NCBI GenBank assembly: GCA_000004985.1
Contig: GG738855.1
Direction: 5' to 3' (one strand)
Source of the DNA: Naegleria gruberi
Taxonomy: Eukaryota
DNA: 64,000 bases
Under the pieces are notes generated by a model. That model saw only the letters and a program-made list of their open reading frames with translations, was not told the origin of the DNA and searched no databases. This document shows, one piece after another, positions 1 through 64,000 of the stretch; position 1 is the first letter of the stretch; every line of letters begins with the position of its first letter. A program made the translations under genes and the position numbers.

Positions 1-364
1 ATTGATTCCAATCATAATTATCTTCTTCTTCATCATCTTCATCAATCCACTTTGACCAATCAACAGCAATATTTCTATTCTTGATGTTGGATTTAGTGAG
101 TCTTGGCCAGAATTCGCCACTCTCGGTTCTTTCAATGTTAAGATCAATAGATCTACCAGACACTTTCCATTTTGATTTTTCGGTATTGATTTCACCAAAC
201 AATTCCAATTCCAATTCATACTTGTTTTCACCTCCTGTTGCTGAAAACTTTAAAATACTATTATCCAATGAAACTTTGACATCTGTAGCATCTGGGACTT
301 CAACAGTCACATAGACACGATCGGCTCTTGGAGCCCACAAAACGTGAGGAACATGTACAGACAT
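1..364 (-). CDS. p23/Sba1-type Hsp90 co-chaperone (CS domain). Partial: ATG at 364-362, 3' end runs off the window
   Basis: My translation of the reverse strand gives MSVHVPHVLWAPRADRVYVTVEVPDATDVKVSLDNSILKFSATGGENKYELELELFGEINTEKSKWKVSGRSIDLNIERTESGEFWPRLTKSNIKNRNIAVDWSKWIDEDDEEED. It aligns with the p23 (prostaglandin E synthase 3) motifs W..R.D.V....V.D..DV.V......L.F...G......H..I.LF..I.P..S.....RSI...L.K.ESG..WPRLTK. Not in the ORF track because it runs off the edge. Confidence 0.7.
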   Translation of the reverse strand, partial: MSVHVPHVLWAPRADRVYVTVEVPDATDVKVSLDNSILKFSATGGENKYELELELFGEINTEKSKWKVSGRSIDLNIERTESGEFWPRLTKSNIKNRNIAVDWSKWIDEDDEEEDNYDWNQ

Positions 365-428
365 TTTTTTAAGAATTGTGTATTTGATTAAATTCCGAGA
401 ACAACAAGATCATTCCGAATAATATTTA

Positions 429-674
429 TTATTTTCGGAACATACAACAATTTTTGTTCTTCACATTGTCGAAAATTATAGAGTTGGTGATTATTTTGAT
501 AGGATGTAAAATATCAAAGATAACCAATGTTTTAATGTTTTGCTCTAAATCTTCCATTCTCTCATTCAAAACACCCTTAATTTCCCTATCTAATGCATTA
601 ATTTTCATGAGAACATTTAAATCAATCATTAGAAAGAAAGCAATATTTATATCTTTGAAGTTGTTGCAAACCAT
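429..674 (-). CDS. Small charged/coiled-coil-like ORF of uncertain reality
   Basis: Track ORF of 81 aa (..KINALDREIKGVLNERMEDLEQNIKTL..) lying between the p23 and NEK genes. An overlapping antisense ORF (454..864 +) exists. No homology recognised. Confidence 0.2.
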   Translation of the reverse strand: MVCNNFKDINIAFFLMIDLNVLMKINALDREIKGVLNERMEDLEQNIKTLVIFDILHPIKIITNSIIFDNVKNKNCCMFRK

Positions 675-980
675 GATAGATCGATCACCTTCTGTATATT
701 CTATTCTATCAATATTGACATTAACTTTTCCAATAGAATATTGCGAAGAAATGGACGAAGATTTTGATGAAATTTATTCGGATGAAACAAACTTGTCTTG
801 TTATTCCAGAGTACAACATCGTTTTCGAAAAATCAAGTTAAAATTAGTATCTACCGAATCTTGAATATTAAAGATTGGTGGTGATTATTTTGCTATGTTA
901 AATATTATCTTGAAAGTGGAATCTCTCCCTGTTGAAATAAAATAGACAGTATTAAGGTTCCATTTTTTGGTGGGAAGAAG

Positions 981-992
981 TTGGCGCCAAAA
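981..992. promoter_or_regulatory. Palindromic E2F-like element TTGGCGCCAAAA in the divergent promoter between the p23 and NEK genes
   Basis: Perfect 10-bp palindrome TTGGCGCCAA inside a very AT-rich spacer. The same 10-mer recurs at 9334, 31509 and 57692, always in 5' intergenic DNA. Confidence 0.5.
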
Positions 993-1094
993 CATTAAAA
1001 AAAAATACAACAAGATTAATTCGAGTAGAAACCCCATCACGAGTCGAGTCAGTTGTATAGTAATTGTGCTAGGAAGCTAGATTGTAAATAGTGA

Positions 1095-3117
1095 ATGAAT
1101 ATAAATATAATGGGTTTTCAGGATTATGATATTATTGAAGAGCTAGGATCTGGTTCCTACGGAAAAGTTTTCACTGTTCGGGATCGAAGAACTGGAGAAA
1201 TTTGTGTTCAGAAAATTGTTAGCCTAGATGGAGTTGATGAAAAGGATAGAGAAGAAACATTAAATGAGGTTCGTAGGAGTAATTATAATACAGTGCATTG
1301 ACTCTGAATAGGCTCGTTTAATGAGCCAGTGTGAACATTTCAATATCATTAAATATTTGGACTCTTTCATCGAGAATAACTACCTATGTATTATTATGGA
1401 ATATGCATCTGGAGGGGATCTGACAAAGAAAATTAAAGCACAACAGGGAAAACCATTCAAGGAAGATTTAGTGTGGAACTTTTTGATACAGATATCTCAA
1501 GGGTTGAAATATTTGCATGACAAGAGAATTTTGGTAAGTTTGTAAATTATTACAAATATTAAACTGATCACATATTATAGCACAGAGATCTTAAACCTCA
1601 AAATATATTTCTAGATGCAGAGGATAATATTAAAATTGGAGATATGGGTTTAGGAAGAATACTAGGACCTCAATCCTCTTTCGCCTCATCAAATGTAGGA
1701 ACACCTCTTTATCAAAGCCCTGAGCTGTGTCAGGAAAAGCCTTACAATCATAAGAGTGACATTTGGGCTTTTGGATGTCTTTTATATGAGCTAGCAGCTT
1801 TTTCACCTCCATTCTTAGCAACAAATCAGATAGCTCTAGCAAAGTAAGTCTCTTTGTTATACTAAATATACTTATGTTATAATAGGAAAATTGTTGGTGA
1901 TAGACCAAACAGTCTTCCCAAAATCTATTCTATGGAACTTCAATTTTTAATATTTAAAATGTTAGAAAAGGAGCCAAGTAAGAGACCAGATATAAACCAA
2001 ATATTGAATTATTCGGCTGTAAAGTTGAGAATTCAAAAGGCTAAGCTTAGACACAAGGAGTTAAAATTGAAGGAGCAATTTTTAACTTTGGAAAAACAAT
2101 TGAGAATGGATTATGAGACAAAAATTGATATGCTCGAAAGGAAACTCTCTGATTACAGATACCAGGAGGAGCAAGTGCAAATGGAAAGAGAAAATATTGT
2201 ACGTAAATAATTCTTAACATGGAATCTAATAATTTGTTATCTCACAACAGAGAGAAAGAGCTCAAGAGCTGGATAAGAAAGAGAATGGGCTGAGAGAACT
2301 CGAGGAAAAACTGCTGAGAAAGCAACACCAACTCAATGAGCTCATAAAACATGGGCATGTTATTATTTCAACACCAAATTCTGGGATTGGTCCCACCATC
2401 ACACCAAGCATACCATCGCCATTTACTTCGCCTGTGAAAGAGCACGGGACACCACAGAGAAAGGTCGACAGTAAATATTATAAACCTGAAACAACTAAGG
2501 TAGTACAAGAAAAGTTCAACTCACTCTATAACATGTTCCATGAACAACAACCAAATAATAGTCCTAATGCTCAGAAAGCTCGATCAGCACCATCAACACC
2601 TGTTAAAAAGCGAACCGATGCAGTTCCAAAGACTCCAAGCCCTAAACCTGTTCACAGACCAAAGAGCAATGGCAATGCTCCTCTTGAACACACACCAAAA
2701 CAAAAACGAAAGAATTCCAATCCTCCATCAACACCAAATGTAAACTCTTCCCAGGTGAGTGTTGGATCCTCAGTCCAGTTAGACTCTAAATTTGTTGGTA
2801 AGGTAATGGGTAAAATAATGCAGAAGAAGCAAACTACTGAGACACCACTAGGAAATAAGGGAAGAAAGCTAGGTATGGGAGGTTCTCCAGATGAAGGTTT
2901 GGTTGATAATAGGGTAAAGAAAAAGTTATCATTTGAAGAAAGTGAACCAACCTTATTCAGACCAATGCCAAGAACATCGCCCACATCAAGGCACTTTGAC
3001 TTTAGAATTTCAGAACCCAAAATAGAGATTGAAGAGTTCAATTCAGATGAAGAAAACTCAGAAGAAGACCTGTTCGTTTTAAGGAGGAAACTGAAAAATG
3101 AAGAACTAAACAAATAA
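1095..3117 (+). CDS. NIMA-related (NEK) Ser/Thr protein kinase with C-terminal coiled-coil and S/P/K-rich tail; 5 exons
   Basis: Exons about 1095-1268, 1312-1533, 1581-1843, 1886-2198 and 2251-3117. Donors are GTTCGT/GTAAGT/GTAAGT/GTACGT, acceptors are AG, and frames were checked against the track ORFs. The spliced product reads GSGSYGKV..CVQKI..LNEARLMSQCEHFNIIKYLDSF..IIMEYASGGDL..HDKRILHRDLKPQNIFL..IKIGDMGLGRIL..GTPLYQSPELCQEKPYNHKSDIWAFGCLLYEL, which is a NEK catalytic domain. The initiator could instead be the ATG at 1110. Confidence 0.85.
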
Positions 3118-58899: not shown

Positions 58900-61637
58900 A
58901 TGGCTGGATTGAAAAAACTTTTAAATAAGAAAAAGTATGTCCTCTCCATGTTTCCCTATCCGAGTGGTAATTTGCACATGGGACATGTTAGAGTGTACAC
59001 AATTTCGGACCTCATTGCTAGGACTCATAAAATGTTAGGGTACAATGTTATTCATCCATTTGGTTTTGATGCCTTTGGATTACCTGCAGAGAATGCTGCC
59101 ATTGAGAGAGGTGTTTCTCCAGCAGATTGGACTCACAAGAATATTGCTCACATGAAGGAACAAATTAAAGCCTTGGATTTTGATTTTGATTGGGAGAGAG
59201 AAGTGATAACTTGCAATCCGGAATATTACAAGTGGACACAATGGCTTTTCCTTCAACTCCACAAGAAGGGATTAGCCTATCAACAAGAAGCTTTGGTAAA
59301 TTGGGATCCGATTGATAATACTGTATTGGCCAATGAACAAGTTGATAGTCAGGGAAGATCTTGGAGATCTGGTGCTTTGGTGGAGAGAAAGAATTTGAGA
59401 CAATGGTTTTTCAAAATTAGAGAATTTGCAAACGTATGTTTAATGCAATATGATTCAGTATTATTTAGTGATGATGATTTTTAAATTTGGAATTTATTAA
59501 TAATTATTCTGTAATTCTGATTTAATGATAATTAATTGATGATTTAATGTTGGATGAATAATATTAATAATAGGAATTATTGGAAGATGCTGATACTTTG
59601 GAAAATTGGCCAATTAATGTTAGAACAATGCAAAAACAATGGATTGGAAAATCGGAAGGAGCTGAATTTTCTTTTGAAACAACTAGTGGAAGTAAGATTA
59701 CTGTCTTTACAACAAGACCAGACACAATTTATGGTGTCACTTATTTAGCTGTTGCTCCAGAAAATGATAAATTAATTGCTGCAATGGTTCCAGAATCGGA
59801 TAAATCTAGAGTTGATGCTTTTATTAAGCGTCTTTCATCATTGACAAGTGTGAAGAGAAATGAAGTTGCCAGCAACTCAAAAGAAGGTTGTTATACTGGT
59901 GTTGATGCTATTCATCCAATCACCAAAGAACGTATTCCAATTTATATTGCCGATTATGTCATTGCTGACTTTGCTGAGGGATGTGTTATGGGAGTCCCAG
60001 CTCACGATACCAGAGATTTTGAATTTGCTCAAAAACACTCCATCCAAGTTAAGAGAGTAATCAAACCACTCGATGATATTGTCGATGAAAATCAATGCTA
60101 CACTGAAAAGAATGGTATTCTCGTTAATTCTGCACAATTTAATGGTATGAAAATTGCTGAAGCTACACCAAAAATTATTCAATTTGCTAAAGAACAAGGT
60201 TTTGGTGGGCCATCTGTCCAATTCAAATTGAGAGATTGGTTAGTTTCAAGACAAAGATACTGGGGTGCACCAATTCCAATCATTCATTGTCCTCAATGTG
60301 GACCTGTTCCAGTTCCTGAAAAGGACTTGCCAGTTCTTTTGCCAACAAATATTGAATTTACTGGTAAGGGACCATCTCCATTGGCCAAAGTTGAAGATTG
60401 GATTAATGTCAAATGTCCATGTGGAAAGGGTATCGATTGTAAACGTGATACTGATACTATGGATACCTTTGTTGATTCATCTTGGTATTTCCACAGATAT
60501 ACCGATGCCAAGAATGATAAGGAGGCATTTAGTGTAGAAAAATCCGATAAGGAAATGAATGTAGATATCTATATTGGAGGTATTGAACATGCCATTCTTC
60601 ACTTGCTCTATTCTAGATTCATTCACAAATTCCTCCACAGTGAAGGATATATGAAACATAAGGAACCATTTGATACTCTCCTCACTCAAGGAATGGTCCA
60701 AGGTGAAACATTCAAAGATTTGGATAACAATAAGTATTACAAACCAGAAGAAATGACAAGATTGGAAGATGGCACAGTTGTAGATAAGAATACTCTCAAA
60801 CCATTGACAAGCGTTTGGGAAAAGATGTCCAAATCCAAATATAATGGTGTAGATCCAGAAGCTGTTGTGAAAGAATTTGGTTCAGATACTGTTCGTCTCT
60901 ACATTCTATTCAAAGCTCCATATGATAAGGAGTTGATGTGGGAACAAAATCAAATTTTGGGGCAACAAAGATTCCTTGCTCGTTTGGATGGTTTGATTTC
61001 CAACTTTGCTAAACGTAAATCTGAAAATGTACAACAATCTGAAGTGGAAACATCTGATGATGAATTCAAATTCTTGAAGGAGATTTATTCTCTCATTGAA
61101 CAAACACGTGAAGGTGTGACATCTCGTTATACATTCAATGTTTGTGTTTCTAATCTCCACAAATATGGTATTGCTCTCCAAGAATATGAAGAAAAGATTG
61201 GAAATACTAAGGCTTATGAAGAAGCAATGCTTTTGTTACCATCTGTTATGGCCCCTTTCACACCAATATTTGCTGAAAAGACCTTCAAGACAGTGACAGC
61301 TCATTTACCAAAAGATCACCCACTCAAACAATGTACATCTGTGTTCGAAACTGCCTTCCCAACTGTTACTCCAAGCGAAATTAAGGTTGAAAAGAAGAGT
61401 CAACTCTGTGTCGTGCAAGTGAACGGTAAGAGAAGAGACGAGCTCCAAATTCCAATGTCCCTTTTAAAGATTGCCAACAATTCTGAAAGACAAACAGCTG
61501 TTGAATCATTTGTTATGAGTAACAGTAGAGTTATTGCTATCAAGAGGGAACAAAATGAAACATTCAAAAAGATTATTCACGTCGACAAGATGAAACATCA
61601 ATATGTAATCAATTACATTGTCGAAGAAAAAGAATAA
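58900..61637 (+). CDS. Leucyl-tRNA synthetase, bacterial/organellar type (probable mitochondrial LeuRS), 2 exons (58900-59433, 59574-61637)
   Basis: ATG at 58900. Signatures [23 protein letters not shown] (HMGH) and KMSKSKYN (KMSKS). A 140-nt intron (GTATGT..AATAATAG) joins ..FFKIREFAN|[29 protein letters not shown]..., collinear with bacterial LeuS (about 866 aa). Only a 12-aa basic N-terminal extension ([12 protein letters not shown]). Confidence 0.9.
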
Positions 61638-61641
61638 AAAT

Positions 61642-63129
61642 TTATCTCTTTGGTGGCCTTATCAATTGTTTCTTCACTTTCATTGGGAACATGTTGGCAA
61701 AGAACATTGGATCTTTCATCATTTGTTCACTCATTTTCTTTGGATCCTTCATGGCTGCTGAACCAGCCTTACTGATGAATGATTTCATCTTTTCGTACAT
61801 CTTGAGCATCTTGTTTACATCGGTAACTTCAACCTTAGCTCTCTTAGCCAAGTCCAATCTTCTGGCACTCGATGATTCAACCAAGAGAGGTTGCAATTTT
61901 TCTTGTTCAGACATGCAACTAATGATATGTTCGTGATTATCAATGAATGACAAGTCCATATTATCCAATTTATCTCTGAATTTACCAATAAATTGTTCTG
62001 GAAGGTAACTGGCCATATTTTTCAGAGATCCCATCTTTTTAAGCATTTGAATTTGATCTTGATAATCCTTGAATGTGTATGCACCCTTACTGAATTGAAC
62101 AAGTTTTTGTTGAGCTTGAGCAGCATCCAAATTCATGGCATCCTTAGCTTTTTGAGCGAGAGTCATAATGTCACCTCCACCCAAAATTCTCTTAGCCAAA
62201 CTTTGGGGATCAAAAGTTTCCAAATCATCCATCCTTTCACCAATACCAATATATTTAACACTCAAACCAACAACTTGTTTCATACTGATAGCACAACCAC
62301 CACTGCTAGTACCATCCATTCTTGTCAAAACAATACCAGATAAACCAACACGATCGTGGAATTGAGTAGCAATATTCACAGCGTCGTTACCAAGCATAGA
62401 GTCTGCAACCAACAAGGTTTCATTTGGTTGAACAATAGCTCTTAATTCTTCCAATTCTGTCATGAGTTGTTCGTCAATGTGCATTCTACCAGCTGTATCG
62501 AAAATTACAGTATCAAATTGTTCACCATTTGGACCCACATATTCCATAGCTCTCTTTGCAATTTCAATTGGATTTTGTTCTGGAATAATTGGAAGTGATT
62601 CGACTTGAATTTGTTGAGCCAATGTTTGAAGCTGCATTTGAGCTGCAGGTCTGTAAGTATCAAGTGATACCAACAAGACTCTTCTATTTTCCTTTCTCTT
62701 TAATTGTAAAGCCAACTTGGCACTCGATGTGGTTTTACCAGAACCTTGAATACCTGTCACCATGATAACTGATTTACCTTCAGTGGATGGAATTAATTCC
62801 AAAGGAGCAACACCTCCACCCAACAATTCTGAAAGTCTATCCATCACCATCAAGTAAACAGTAGCAGATTTTGGTAATTCTTCAGCTTTTTGATTCGGAC
62901 CAACCCATTTTGCAATACGTGACAGTATTCCCTTATTTTCCTGTGATTCAACTTGTTTAACAGCTGCAATACCAATGGCATCCTCAGTGGCTTCCTTCAC
63001 AAATTGTGAAACAACAGATTCAGCAACATCAGCATCCAACAAGGCAACTCTAACTTTTTGCATGGCCTCTTCGACATCTTCCTTGGTGAGTGTCTTCTTT
63101 TTGAAGAGATTAGTAAAAGCATCAGACAT
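61642..63129 (-). CDS. ffh: Ffh-type (bacterial/organellar) signal recognition particle protein SRP54, probable mitochondrial
   Basis: ATG at 63129 (MSDAFTNLFKKKTLTKEDVEEAMQKVRVALLDADV..). GTPase motifs VIMVTGIQGSGKTTS, DTAGRMH and LTRMDGTSSGG. The region VLLVSLDTYRPAAQMQLQTLAQQIQV aligns with E. coli Ffh VLVVSADVYRPAAIKQLETLAEQVGV rather than cytosolic SRP54. A Met-rich C-terminal M-domain is present. The track start at 63189 is a GTG. The stop is 4 nt from the LeuRS stop. Confidence 0.8.
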   Translation of the reverse strand: MSDAFTNLFKKKTLTKEDVEEAMQKVRVALLDADVAESVVSQFVKEATEDAIGIAAVKQVESQENKGILSRIAKWVGPNQKAEELPKSATVYLMVMDRLSELLGGGVAPLELIPSTEGKSVIMVTGIQGSGKTTSSAKLALQLKRKENRRVLLVSLDTYRPAAQMQLQTLAQQIQVESLPIIPEQNPIEIAKRAMEYVGPNGEQFDTVIFDTAGRMHIDEQLMTELEELRAIVQPNETLLVADSMLGNDAVNIATQFHDRVGLSGIVLTRMDGTSSGGCAISMKQVVGLSVKYIGIGERMDDLETFDPQSLAKRILGGGDIMTLAQKAKDAMNLDAAQAQQKLVQFSKGAYTFKDYQDQIQMLKKMGSLKNMASYLPEQFIGKFRDKLDNMDLSFIDNHEHIISCMSEQEKLQPLLVESSSARRLDLAKRAKVEVTDVNKMLKMYEKMKSFISKAGSAAMKDPKKMSEQMMKDPMFFANMFPMKVKKQLIRPPKR

Positions 63130-63617
63130 ATTAGAGGTCAAGTTTGAAAATAGACCATATTGTTTTGGTGAAGAGTGGAAGAATCTCACTTGTTGTTGAT
63201 TGTATTGTTGAAGAACATTTGGAGCCCAACATTCTTGTTATTTGATGAAAATAAACTTGTATGATGGCACAAGGCTGGTGAAAATACTTCCGATGATGAA
63301 AAGACAATTTTACAGTGATGATGTGTGTTGGCTGTCTTTAAAAATCGTGAGAGGAGAGAACGACTATTACTTTTAAACATTTTTTTCTAATCTGTGTTGT
63401 TTTATTATTATAATTGTTTCTTCATGTATCTAATTGATGTGATGATAACAAATTGTTGTACTATTAGATATTATGAACGACGACAATTAAATAATTAATA
63501 TTATATTATAGTTTTTATTGTTTGAAAAAGGTGTCGAAAATTAAAATCAACCAAAACAAAGACCCATTTTGGTTAATATTGTTGTTATTGTTGGTGTTAA
63601 AAGGTGGTAGAGTAGAA

Positions 63618-64000
63618 TTATTGTTTACCTCCGATGATAGACTTCAAGTGTTCGTTGAGCTTGGTTGGTGTATTCTTCCATGAGTGAGAAGTAACAAGAT
63701 TGTAGGTGGAAATGGTTGGTTTGACTGGATATTGAACAAAGAAAGTTTGAGCAGCTTCTTCTTCTCCATTGACAAGATAAGAGTACAGCAAAGCATTACG
63801 CAAGGAAGCAACTTCTCTATCAGTTGAAGCTCTCTTAATATATAATCCAAAGGTAAGTTCAGCATCAGGTACGCTACCAACTTGACCGAAAGCAGCAATA
63901 ATCTTGGCCATATCATCAATTTCCAAATCACGTGGGTGAGCATCGTAGTGTTGCTTGAGAGAAATGAGAGACTTGTAGTCGCTTGCCTTGGCAAATTCTA
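63618..64000 (-). CDS. 3' part of a gene running off the window end (hypothetical; C-terminus ..SIIGGKQ*)
   Basis: Open reading frame continuing beyond 64000 on the minus strand (..ASDYKSLISLKQHYDAHPRDLEIDDMAKIIAAFGQVGSVPDAELTFGLYIKRASTDREVASLRNALLYSYLVNGEEEAAQTFF..). No family assigned. Confidence 0.35.
   Translation of the reverse strand, partial: EFAKASDYKSLISLKQHYDAHPRDLEIDDMAKIIAAFGQVGSVPDAELTFGLYIKRASTDREVASLRNALLYSYLVNGEEEAAQTFFVQYPVKPTISTYNLVTSHSWKNTPTKLNEHLKSIIGGKQ

What the first reader, a model, noticed from the sequence alone, without database searches (positions are those of the whole stretch)
61642..63380. Bacterial-type Ffh (mitochondrial SRP54 candidate) with an unlinked presequence-like mini-ORF just upstream
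The SRP54 here is Ffh-like (alpha-proteobacterial/organellar type) rather than cytosolic SRP54, yet it sits in a nuclear, intron-containing context. That implies an organelle-targeted SRP, and mitochondrial Ffh is known from only a few protist lineages. The conserved N-domain begins right at the first ATG (63129), leaving no room for a targeting peptide. However, 60-250 bp upstream on the same strand there is a separate ATG-initiated ORF (63380..63186) whose N-terminus MFKSNSRSLLSRFLKTANTHHH.. looks like a mitochondrial presequence, in a different frame. I could not find a canonical GT-AG splice that links it in frame. Either there is an unresolved 5' exon or non-canonical junction, or targeting is presequence-independent.
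Basis: partly seen in the sequence, partly recalled or inferred. Interest (0 to 1): 0.7.

Follow-up and report, generated by a model that had tools for sequence, protein, structure and literature searches.

The report
Naegleria mitochondrial Ffh, split by assembly error
This is the already published mitochondrial Ffh (bacterial-type SRP54) gene of the amoeba Naegleria gruberi, and the "unlinked" presequence mini-ORF is simply its true 5' end, knocked out of frame by a single base missing from the genome assembly.

Summary
On the minus strand a 64-codon ATG ORF (63380..63186) lies just upstream of, and out of frame with, a bacterial-type Ffh ORF (63189..61642).

The window is Naegleria gruberi NEG-M nuclear DNA. 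The gene is NgFfh / mtFfh (XP_002680081.1), described by Pyrih et al. 2021 (PMC8321541). That paper reports a one-nucleotide deletion in the assembly, seen against raw Sanger reads. It confirmed the corrected 5' end by RT-PCR and proteomics, and showed mitochondrial localisation.

I reproduced the correction independently:
- Inserting one C between 63219 and 63218 is the only single-base insertion that yields the published 579-aa protein.
- A 99.2%-identical metagenome contig reads CTCCAACATG where the window reads CTCCAA-ATG, and encodes an uninterrupted 579-aa ORF.

No intron, non-canonical junction or presequence-independent import is needed.

- Homology to bacterial Ffh starts 8 codons upstream of ATG 63129, not at it.
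- In-frame GT-AG pairs do exist, although none is real.

The mitochondrial-Ffh interpretation is correct but already known. Interest is low.

The parts
61642..63380 (-). Complete mtFfh (NgFfh) coding sequence. It encodes 579 aa once one missing C is restored, and it has no intron.
   Evidence: Restoring the C reproduces the published corrected protein. The 99.2%-identical contig L004 encodes a continuous 579-aa ORF, P0121.
63219..63380 (-). This is the N-terminal part of the mitochondrial presequence, including the amphipathic RSLLSRFLK segment.
   Evidence: residues 1-75 hold 8 K/R, 1 D/E and 21% S/T, and the hydrophobic moment peaks at residues 4-18. Published predictions are TargetP mTP 0.908 and MitoFates 0.971.
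63218..63219 (-). Site of the one-nucleotide (C) deletion in the assembly. The true sequence is CAA-CAT (Q54-H55); the window reads CAA-AT.
   Evidence: Only this single-base insertion reproduces the published protein. L004 carries the C at this position, and this is the only indel inside the CDS. The paper's supplementary fig. S2 legend says the deletion is apparent from raw Sanger reads.
63154..63218 (-). Codons 55-76 in the Ffh frame. This is the C-terminal part of the N-terminal extension and contains the conserved VRFFHSS motif, an inferred MPP-type R-2/R-3 cleavage region.
   Evidence: The motif is conserved in P0003, N. lovaniensis, N. fowleri and Willaertia. The cleavage site itself is inference and was not tested.
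63130..63153 (-). Codons 77-84 (LFSNLTSN), the first 8 residues homologous to bacterial Ffh (MFxxLxxx). They lie upstream of the ATG used by the JGI gene model.
   Evidence: Alignment with four alphaproteobacterial Ffh proteins.
62956..63141 (-). SRP54 N domain (helical bundle, PF02881).
   Evidence: 45.4 bits against a cut-off of 22.4.
62941..63015 (-). 75-nt stretch removed as an 'intron' in the JGI model XP_002680081.1. It is really coding and encodes VVSQFVKEATEDAIGIAAVKQVESQ.
   Evidence: P0001 lacks these 25 aa. They align to conserved N-domain residues in every homologue, bacteria included.
62179..62772 (-). SRP54-type GTPase (G) domain with intact G1 (GxQGSGKTT), DxxR, DTAGR, and the G4 (TRxDG) and G5 (GxGE) motifs.
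   Evidence: PF00448 at 224.6 bits. Invariant columns are listed.
61777..62079 (-). M domain (signal-peptide-binding domain, PF02978). The bacterial GSG RNA-binding motif is replaced by KRAK.
   Evidence: 65.5 bits. The paper reports that the RNA-binding motifs are mutated and that no SRP RNA gene was found.
61642..61644 (-). TAA stop codon of mtFfh. It lies 4 bp from the stop of the convergent LeuRS gene, which ends at 61637 on the + strand.

Best explanation
The region is the single-exon nuclear gene for the mitochondrial Ffh of Naegleria gruberi (NgFfh/mtFfh).

The real CDS runs from ATG 63380 to TAA 61642 and encodes 579 aa in three parts:
- An N-terminal mitochondrial presequence of about 65-76 residues. 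It is basic and hydroxylated, almost free of acidic residues, has an amphipathic start, and carries a conserved RFFHSS motif near its end.
- A bacterial-type N-G-M Ffh body.
- A short lysine-rich tail.

The apparent split into two unlinked ORFs is an artefact. The reference assembly lacks one C between window positions 63219 and 63218 (CAA-[C]AT, Q54-H55).

What is shown:
- The missing base.
- The continuity of the ORF in an independent assembly.
- The bacterial affinity of the protein.
- Mitochondrial localisation and the 5' end of the transcript, both from the literature.

What is inferred:
- After import and cleavage, the protein acts with mtFtsY as an RNA-less SRP.
- This SRP hands hydrophobic nascent chains made on mitoribosomes to the inner-membrane insertase.
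For: - Identity: P0001, 'predicted protein [Naegleria gruberi]' XP_002680081.1, matches the window ORF exactly apart from a spliced-out 25-aa piece.
[quoted passage not shown] The supplementary fig. S2 legend describes a one-nucleotide deletion seen against raw Sanger reads. The table lists 0 introns. The corrected 5' end was confirmed by RT-PCR and proteomics. The protein was found in the LOPIT mitochondrial fraction, and both the N-terminal leader and the full-length protein target mNeonGreen to the T. brucei mitochondrion.
- Independent reproduction: of all single-base insertions over 260 nt, only a C after 63219 gives the published protein.
- Independent assembly: ENA metagenome contig L004 is 99.2% identical over 2856 bp. 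It has the extra C exactly there. That is the only indel within the CDS. It encodes a continuous 579-aa protein, P0121.
- Relatives: other Naegleria species and Willaertia have continuous ORFs with 70-100+ aa extensions.
- Substitution pattern between the window and L004: 3 of 4 changes are non-synonymous in the presequence, against 0 of 7 in the mature part.
- Type of Ffh: ffh model 398 bits against SRP54_euk 215 bits. The best PDB matches are bacterial Ffh.
- Presequence composition and the published TargetP, MitoProt, MitoFates and Predotar scores of 0.908, 0.926, 0.971 and 0.87.
Against: - I could not inspect NEG-M reads or transcripts. The claim that the deletion is an assembly error rather than a real allele rests on the paper and on a near-identical but not identical environmental strain.
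- The ffh score of 398 bits is below NCBIfam's equivalog cut-off of 473.2, so the protein is a divergent Ffh.
- The biochemical role (co-translational targeting without RNA) has not been demonstrated in Naegleria. The paper itself says the organism is hard to manipulate.
Confidence: 0.94

Rival explanations
1. A real spliceosomal intron joins a short 5' exon carrying the presequence to the Ffh exon. Candidate junctions are GT 63313 .. AG 63189 (125 nt) and GT 63256 .. AG 63189 (68 nt).
For: Many GT-AG pairs restore a single ORF of more than 450 aa. The neighbouring LeuRS gene does appear to contain an intron, at about 59485..59579.
Against: - The near-identical contig L004 keeps the entire stretch as uninterrupted coding sequence once the C is present.
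- The stretch that would be spliced out is retained as coding sequence in L004: 54 of its 57 extension residues are identical.
- The published table lists 0 introns, and RT-PCR confirmed the 5' end.
Confidence: 0.02
2. The one-base deletion is real in the NEG-M genome, or in one haplotype. In that case the locus is either a frameshifted null allele or is decoded by programmed -1 ribosomal frameshifting or transcript editing.
For: The window sequence as given does lack the base, and I could not inspect raw reads.
Against: - The supplementary fig. S2 legend says raw Sanger reads from the same project contain the base.
- RT-PCR and peptides support the corrected protein.
- No X_XXY_YYZ slippery heptamer lies in the only zone where both frames are open (63239..63186). 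The single heptamer found, at 63342, is outside that zone.
- The mature part is under strong purifying selection, with 0 of 7 substitutions non-synonymous against L004.
Confidence: 0.03
3. Translation starts at ATG 63129 as in the JGI model. The protein would have no presequence and would be cytosolic or imported without a presequence, and the upstream ORF would be a coincidence or a uORF.
For: ATG 63129 is the first ATG in the Ffh frame as assembled.
Against: - This start would remove the first 8 residues homologous to bacterial Ffh, plus a motif conserved across Naegleria and Willaertia.
- All relatives have long extensions.
- The published leader sequence alone targets a reporter to mitochondria.
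Confidence: 0.01
4. The gene is a bacterial contaminant or a plastid-type cpSRP54 rather than a genuine Naegleria mitochondrial gene.
For: Apart from heterolobosean relatives, the best database hits are bacterial.
Against: - The gene sits in a 613-kb N. gruberi scaffold between eukaryotic genes.
- Its GC (0.375) and GC3 (0.32) match those of its neighbours.
- Orthologues with the same architecture occur in N. fowleri, N. lovaniensis, Willaertia and Acrasis.
- Published phylogeny places mtFfh as a monophyletic clade unrelated to cpSRP54.
Confidence: 0.005

Closest known systems
NgFfh / mtFfh of Naegleria gruberi (Pyrih et al. 2021, Mol Biol Evol 38:3170, PMC8321541; XP_002680081.1, corrected sequence in their supplementary table S1)
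   Same: It is the same gene. The window sequence plus one C translates exactly to the published corrected protein as far as the supplement text shows it. The frame break is the one the paper documents.
   Different: Nothing biological differs. The window carries the uncorrected assembly sequence.
Bacterial (alphaproteobacterial) Ffh, e.g. E. coli Ffh (PDB 2xxa_A) and B. subtilis Ffh (7o5b_g)
   Same: The N-G-M architecture is the same, all GTPase motifs are intact, and identity is 42-45% over about 90% of the length.
   Different: - It has a 76-aa N-terminal extension.
- It has an insertion of about 25 aa in the N domain, shared by Naegleria and Willaertia.
- The DARGG motif reads DGTSSGG.
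- The GSG RNA-binding motif of the M domain is replaced.
- No SRP RNA partner is known.
- It scores below the TIGR00959 equivalog cut-off.
Chloroplast cpSRP54 of seed plants
   Same: Both are bacteria-derived, nuclear-encoded, organelle-imported SRP54 homologues that have lost the RNA component and carry mutated RNA-binding motifs.
   Different: The organelle and the evolutionary origin differ: alphaproteobacterial/mitochondrial here, cyanobacterial/plastid for cpSRP54. The published tree shows the two are unrelated.
Cytosolic eukaryotic SRP54
   Same: The SRP54 superfamily domains are the same.
   Different: Similarity is much lower: 215 bits against SRP54_euk compared with 398 for ffh, and about 140 bits to mammalian SRP54 structures compared with 250-285 for bacterial Ffh.

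Membership tests
SRP54/Ffh family (signal-recognition-associated GTPases) | N-terminal four-helix bundle (SRP54_N, PF02881) | tested here: met
   45.4 bits against a cut-off of 22.4. The ALLDADV motif is conserved.
SRP54/Ffh family (signal-recognition-associated GTPases) | SRP54-type GTPase domain with G1-G5 motifs | tested here: met
   PF00448 at 224.6 bits. GxQGSGKTT, DTAGR, the DG of G4 (TRxDG) and GxGE of G5 are invariant.
SRP54/Ffh family (signal-recognition-associated GTPases) | Methionine-rich M domain (SRP_SPB, PF02978) | tested here: met
   65.5 bits against a cut-off of 27.
Bacterial-type Ffh (TIGR00959 equivalog) | Scores better against the bacterial ffh model than against eukaryotic SRP54 | tested here: met
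   398.2 against 214.6 bits; bacterial Ffh structures rank at the top.
Bacterial-type Ffh (TIGR00959 equivalog) | Reaches the curated equivalog cut-off (473.2 bits) | tested here: not met
   398.2 bits, which marks a divergent, organellar derivative.
Bacterial-type Ffh (TIGR00959 equivalog) | Intact SRP-RNA-binding motifs in the M domain and a 4.5S RNA partner | tested here: not met
   Bacterial ..RI-AxGSG.. aligns to ..RLDLAKRAK... No Rfam family is found in the window. The paper found no ffs gene in the nuclear or mitochondrial genomes.
mtFfh clade (Pyrih et al. 2021) | Sequence identity or orthology with the published mtFfh sequences | tested here: met
   The corrected translation equals the published NgFfh sequence. 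Orthologues are present in N. fowleri, N. lovaniensis, Willaertia and Acrasis.
mtFfh clade (Pyrih et al. 2021) | N-terminal extension with mitochondrial presequence properties, absent from bacterial Ffh | tested here: met
   The 76-aa extension is shown and its composition.
mtFfh clade (Pyrih et al. 2021) | Mitochondrial localisation of the protein | not testable with these tools
   Published: LOPIT fractionation and heterologous expression in T. brucei.
mtFfh clade (Pyrih et al. 2021) | Co-occurring mtFtsY receptor | not tested
   It is not in this window. The published N. gruberi mtFtsY is XP_002682642.1, on another scaffold.
   L004 reads straight through as one ORF. The paper lists 0 introns and confirmed the 5' end by RT-PCR.

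The most novel reading that the evidence does not exclude
The missing C might be a genuine allele in N. gruberi NEG-M rather than a consensus error. One haplotype would then carry a frameshifted mtFfh that is either a null allele or requires recoding (a -1 frameshift or editing) to make the mitochondrial protein.
Probability: 0.03. Interest if true: 0.35.

Novelty: already known. Interest (0 to 1): 0.1.

Why it matters
Mitochondrial Ffh/FtsY is an interesting relic of bacterial co-translational membrane targeting, kept in only a few protist lineages. This locus, its faulty gene model and the exact assembly error were all published in 2021.

The practical value is limited to three points:
- The deposited assembly and XP_002680081.1 remain wrong. 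The model lacks the 84-residue N-terminus and a 25-aa piece of the N domain.
- Automated scans will keep flagging this locus as an anomaly.
- An environmental contig now corroborates the correction independently.

Tried and rejected
- Splice junctions: I enumerated all GT/GC..AG pairs that join ATG 63380 to the Ffh frame. Many exist, but I rejected them because the allelic contig and the published cDNA are colinear.
- Programmed frameshifting: I looked for a -1 slippery heptamer in the zone where both frames are open and found none.
- Exact look-up of the corrected 579-aa protein in the 15-billion-protein collection: it is not present. The same look-up did reveal P0121, a 579-aa cluster-mate differing at 3 presequence residues, and that led to contig L004.
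- SRP RNA: an Rfam scan of the whole window for an SRP or 4.5S RNA gave no hit.
- Upstream neighbour: a Pfam scan of the upstream ORF fragment (63618..63998, minus strand) gave no hit. The paper calls this neighbour a PPR protein.
- Contamination or plastid origin: rejected on composition, synteny and the published phylogeny.

Full report
**1. What is in the sequence**

- On the minus strand an ATG ORF runs 63380..63186 (64 aa, MFKSNSRSLLSRFLKTANTHHH...).
- A long ORF runs 63189..61642. Its first ATG is at 63129.
- The long ORF carries SRP54_N, the SRP54 GTPase domain and the SRP_SPB (M) domain, all well above Pfam thresholds.
- The two ORFs are in different frames.
- The Ffh frame is open only back to a TAA at about 63239 and holds no ATG before 63129.

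**2. Whose gene it is**

- The top database hit, P0001, is 'predicted protein [Naegleria gruberi]' (XP_002680081.1 / EFC47337.1), on a 613-kb scaffold. It is identical to the window ORF from M(63129) onward, except that the JGI model splices out 25 aa.
- The next hits are other Naegleria species (N. fowleri, N. lovaniensis and two unnamed environmental ones), then Willaertia magna, other heteroloboseans including Acrasis kona, and then Alphaproteobacteria at 41-45% identity.
- The NCBIfam bacterial ffh model scores 398 bits against 215 for eukaryotic SRP54.
- Solved bacterial Ffh structures score 250-285 bits against about 140 for mammalian SRP54.
- The protein is therefore a bacterial-type Ffh encoded in Naegleria nuclear DNA. 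Its GC and GC3 match those of its neighbours.

**3. The frame problem**

Where homology begins:
- Bacterial Ffh M1-F2 aligns to L77-F78 (window 63153), 8 codons upstream of ATG 63129.
- A motif (R/H)x(F/Y)H(S/T)S....GxFSxLT is conserved further upstream in Naegleria and Willaertia.
- Translation must therefore start upstream of 63129. Nothing in that frame can start it, so the frame has to be reached from the ATG at 63380.

The splice option:
- A simpler explanation exists.

The literature:
- Pyrih et al. [quoted passage not shown]
- Their supplementary fig. [quoted passage not shown]
- Their table S1 gives the corrected protein and lists 0 introns.
- RT-PCR of the 5' end and proteomics confirmed the correction.

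My tests of this:
- Among all single-base insertions in the first 260 nt, only a C between 63219 and 63218 (CAA-[C]AT, Q54-H55) reproduces the published sequence. It gives a 579-aa protein.
- The P0001 cluster contains a second member, P0121, which is also 579 aa and comes from an ENA metagenome contig.
- That contig, L004, is 99.2% identical to the window over 2856 bp.
- L004 reads CTCCAACATGTTC where the window reads CTCCAA-ATGTTC.
- This is the only indel inside the CDS. The other indels lie in the flanking intergenic DNA.
- In the N-terminal extension, 3 of the 4 substitutions change the protein. In the mature part, 0 of 7 do. That pattern fits a loosely constrained presequence attached to a tightly constrained enzyme.

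**4. Rivals**

- *A real intron.* This conflicts with the colinear ORF in L004 and with the published cDNA.
- *A genuine frameshift decoded by recoding.* No slippery heptamer lies in the only zone where both frames are open. It also conflicts with the reported raw reads.
- *Initiation at 63129.* This would cut off conserved residues, and it conflicts with the published targeting activity of the leader.
- *Contamination or plastid origin.* This is excluded by synteny, composition, orthologues and the published phylogeny.

**5. How it most likely works**

Shown here or in the literature:
- The protein has a basic, hydroxylated N-terminus that is almost free of acidic residues: 8 K/R against 1 D/E in residues 1-75, with an amphipathic segment at residues 4-18.
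- Four published predictors call it mitochondrial, with scores of 0.87-0.97.
- It was found in the LOPIT mitochondrial fraction.
- Its leader alone, and the full-length protein, both direct mNeonGreen to the T. brucei mitochondrion.
- The GTPase motifs are intact.
- The M-domain RNA-binding motif is degenerate: GSG is replaced by KRAK.
- No SRP RNA is detectable in the window, nor, per the paper, in the nuclear or mitochondrial genomes.

Inferred:
- After MPP cleavage, probably near R66-F-F-H69, mature mtFfh forms an RNA-free SRP.
- This SRP recognises signal-peptide-like N-termini of mitochondrion-encoded membrane proteins on mitoribosomes.
- It then docks on mtFtsY at the inner membrane, in a way analogous to RNA-less cpSRP54 in seed-plant plastids.

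**6. Comparison with what is known, and verdict**

- This is not merely similar to mtFfh. It is the type example, NgFfh.
- The frame anomaly is the published assembly error.
- Novelty: already known.
- The remaining value is as a curation note. The assembly (per the paper, ACER01000115.1; I did not check this accession against the window) and XP_002680081.1 remain uncorrected. XP_002680081.1 also carries a spurious 75-nt intron at 63015..62941.

Noticed in passing
window 62941..63015 (-): The JGI/RefSeq model XP_002680081.1 removes this in-frame 75-nt GT..AG stretch as an intron. It encodes 25 residues (VVSQFVKEATEDAIGIAAVKQVESQ) that align to the conserved N-domain helix in all homologues, so the intron is spurious.
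   Followed up: yes
window about 62110..62140 (-); corrected residues about 356-364: Naegleria and Willaertia mtFfh read TRMDGTSSGGCA where bacterial Ffh and other heterolobosean mtFfh read DGD(A/V)RGGAA. The Arg of the conserved DARGG motif is therefore lost. From my own knowledge, this motif sits at the N/G interface and moves when the Ffh-FtsY complex forms. The main text of the 2021 paper does not mention DARGG.
   Followed up: partly
window about 62880..62960 (-); corrected residues about 142-168: The N domain carries an insertion of about 25-35 aa (..KQVESQENKGILSRIAKWVGPNQKAEE..). It is shared by Naegleria and Willaertia but absent from bacteria and from other heterolobosean mtFfh proteins. 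Its function is unknown.
   Followed up: no
window 61637..61642: The stop codons of the convergent LeuRS gene (+ strand, ends 61637) and of mtFfh (- strand, ends 61642) are only 4 bp apart, so their 3' UTRs must overlap. The same tight arrangement is seen in L004, with a 3-nt gap.
   Followed up: no
window 58900..61637 (+): A bacterial-type leucyl-tRNA synthetase is split into at least two ORFs, 58900..59484 and 59580..61637 (Pfam LeuRS editing domain, E = 5e-61). This implies an intron at about 59485..59579. The first ORF starts almost at the HIGH motif, so a further 5' exon or an N-terminal targeting sequence may have been missed. It may be the mitochondrial LeuRS, adjacent to mtFfh.
   Followed up: partly
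L004 (ENA ERZ929261, run ERR1078381, PRJEB11402), 1..2856: An environmental metagenome contig is 99.2% identical to N. gruberi NEG-M across mtFfh and the 3' end of LeuRS. A very close N. gruberi strain is therefore present in that sample. Its three amino-acid differences (H21Q, N50S, G52V) all fall in the presequence.
   Followed up: partly
L003 (Logan SRR29240419) and P0124: ORF-based gene calls for N. fowleri-like mtFfh extend 67-72 aa further upstream (679 and 684 aa) than the NCBI N. fowleri model (612 aa). The paper also notes that the true start in N. fowleri and N. lovaniensis is uncertain and may be a downstream Met.
   Followed up: no
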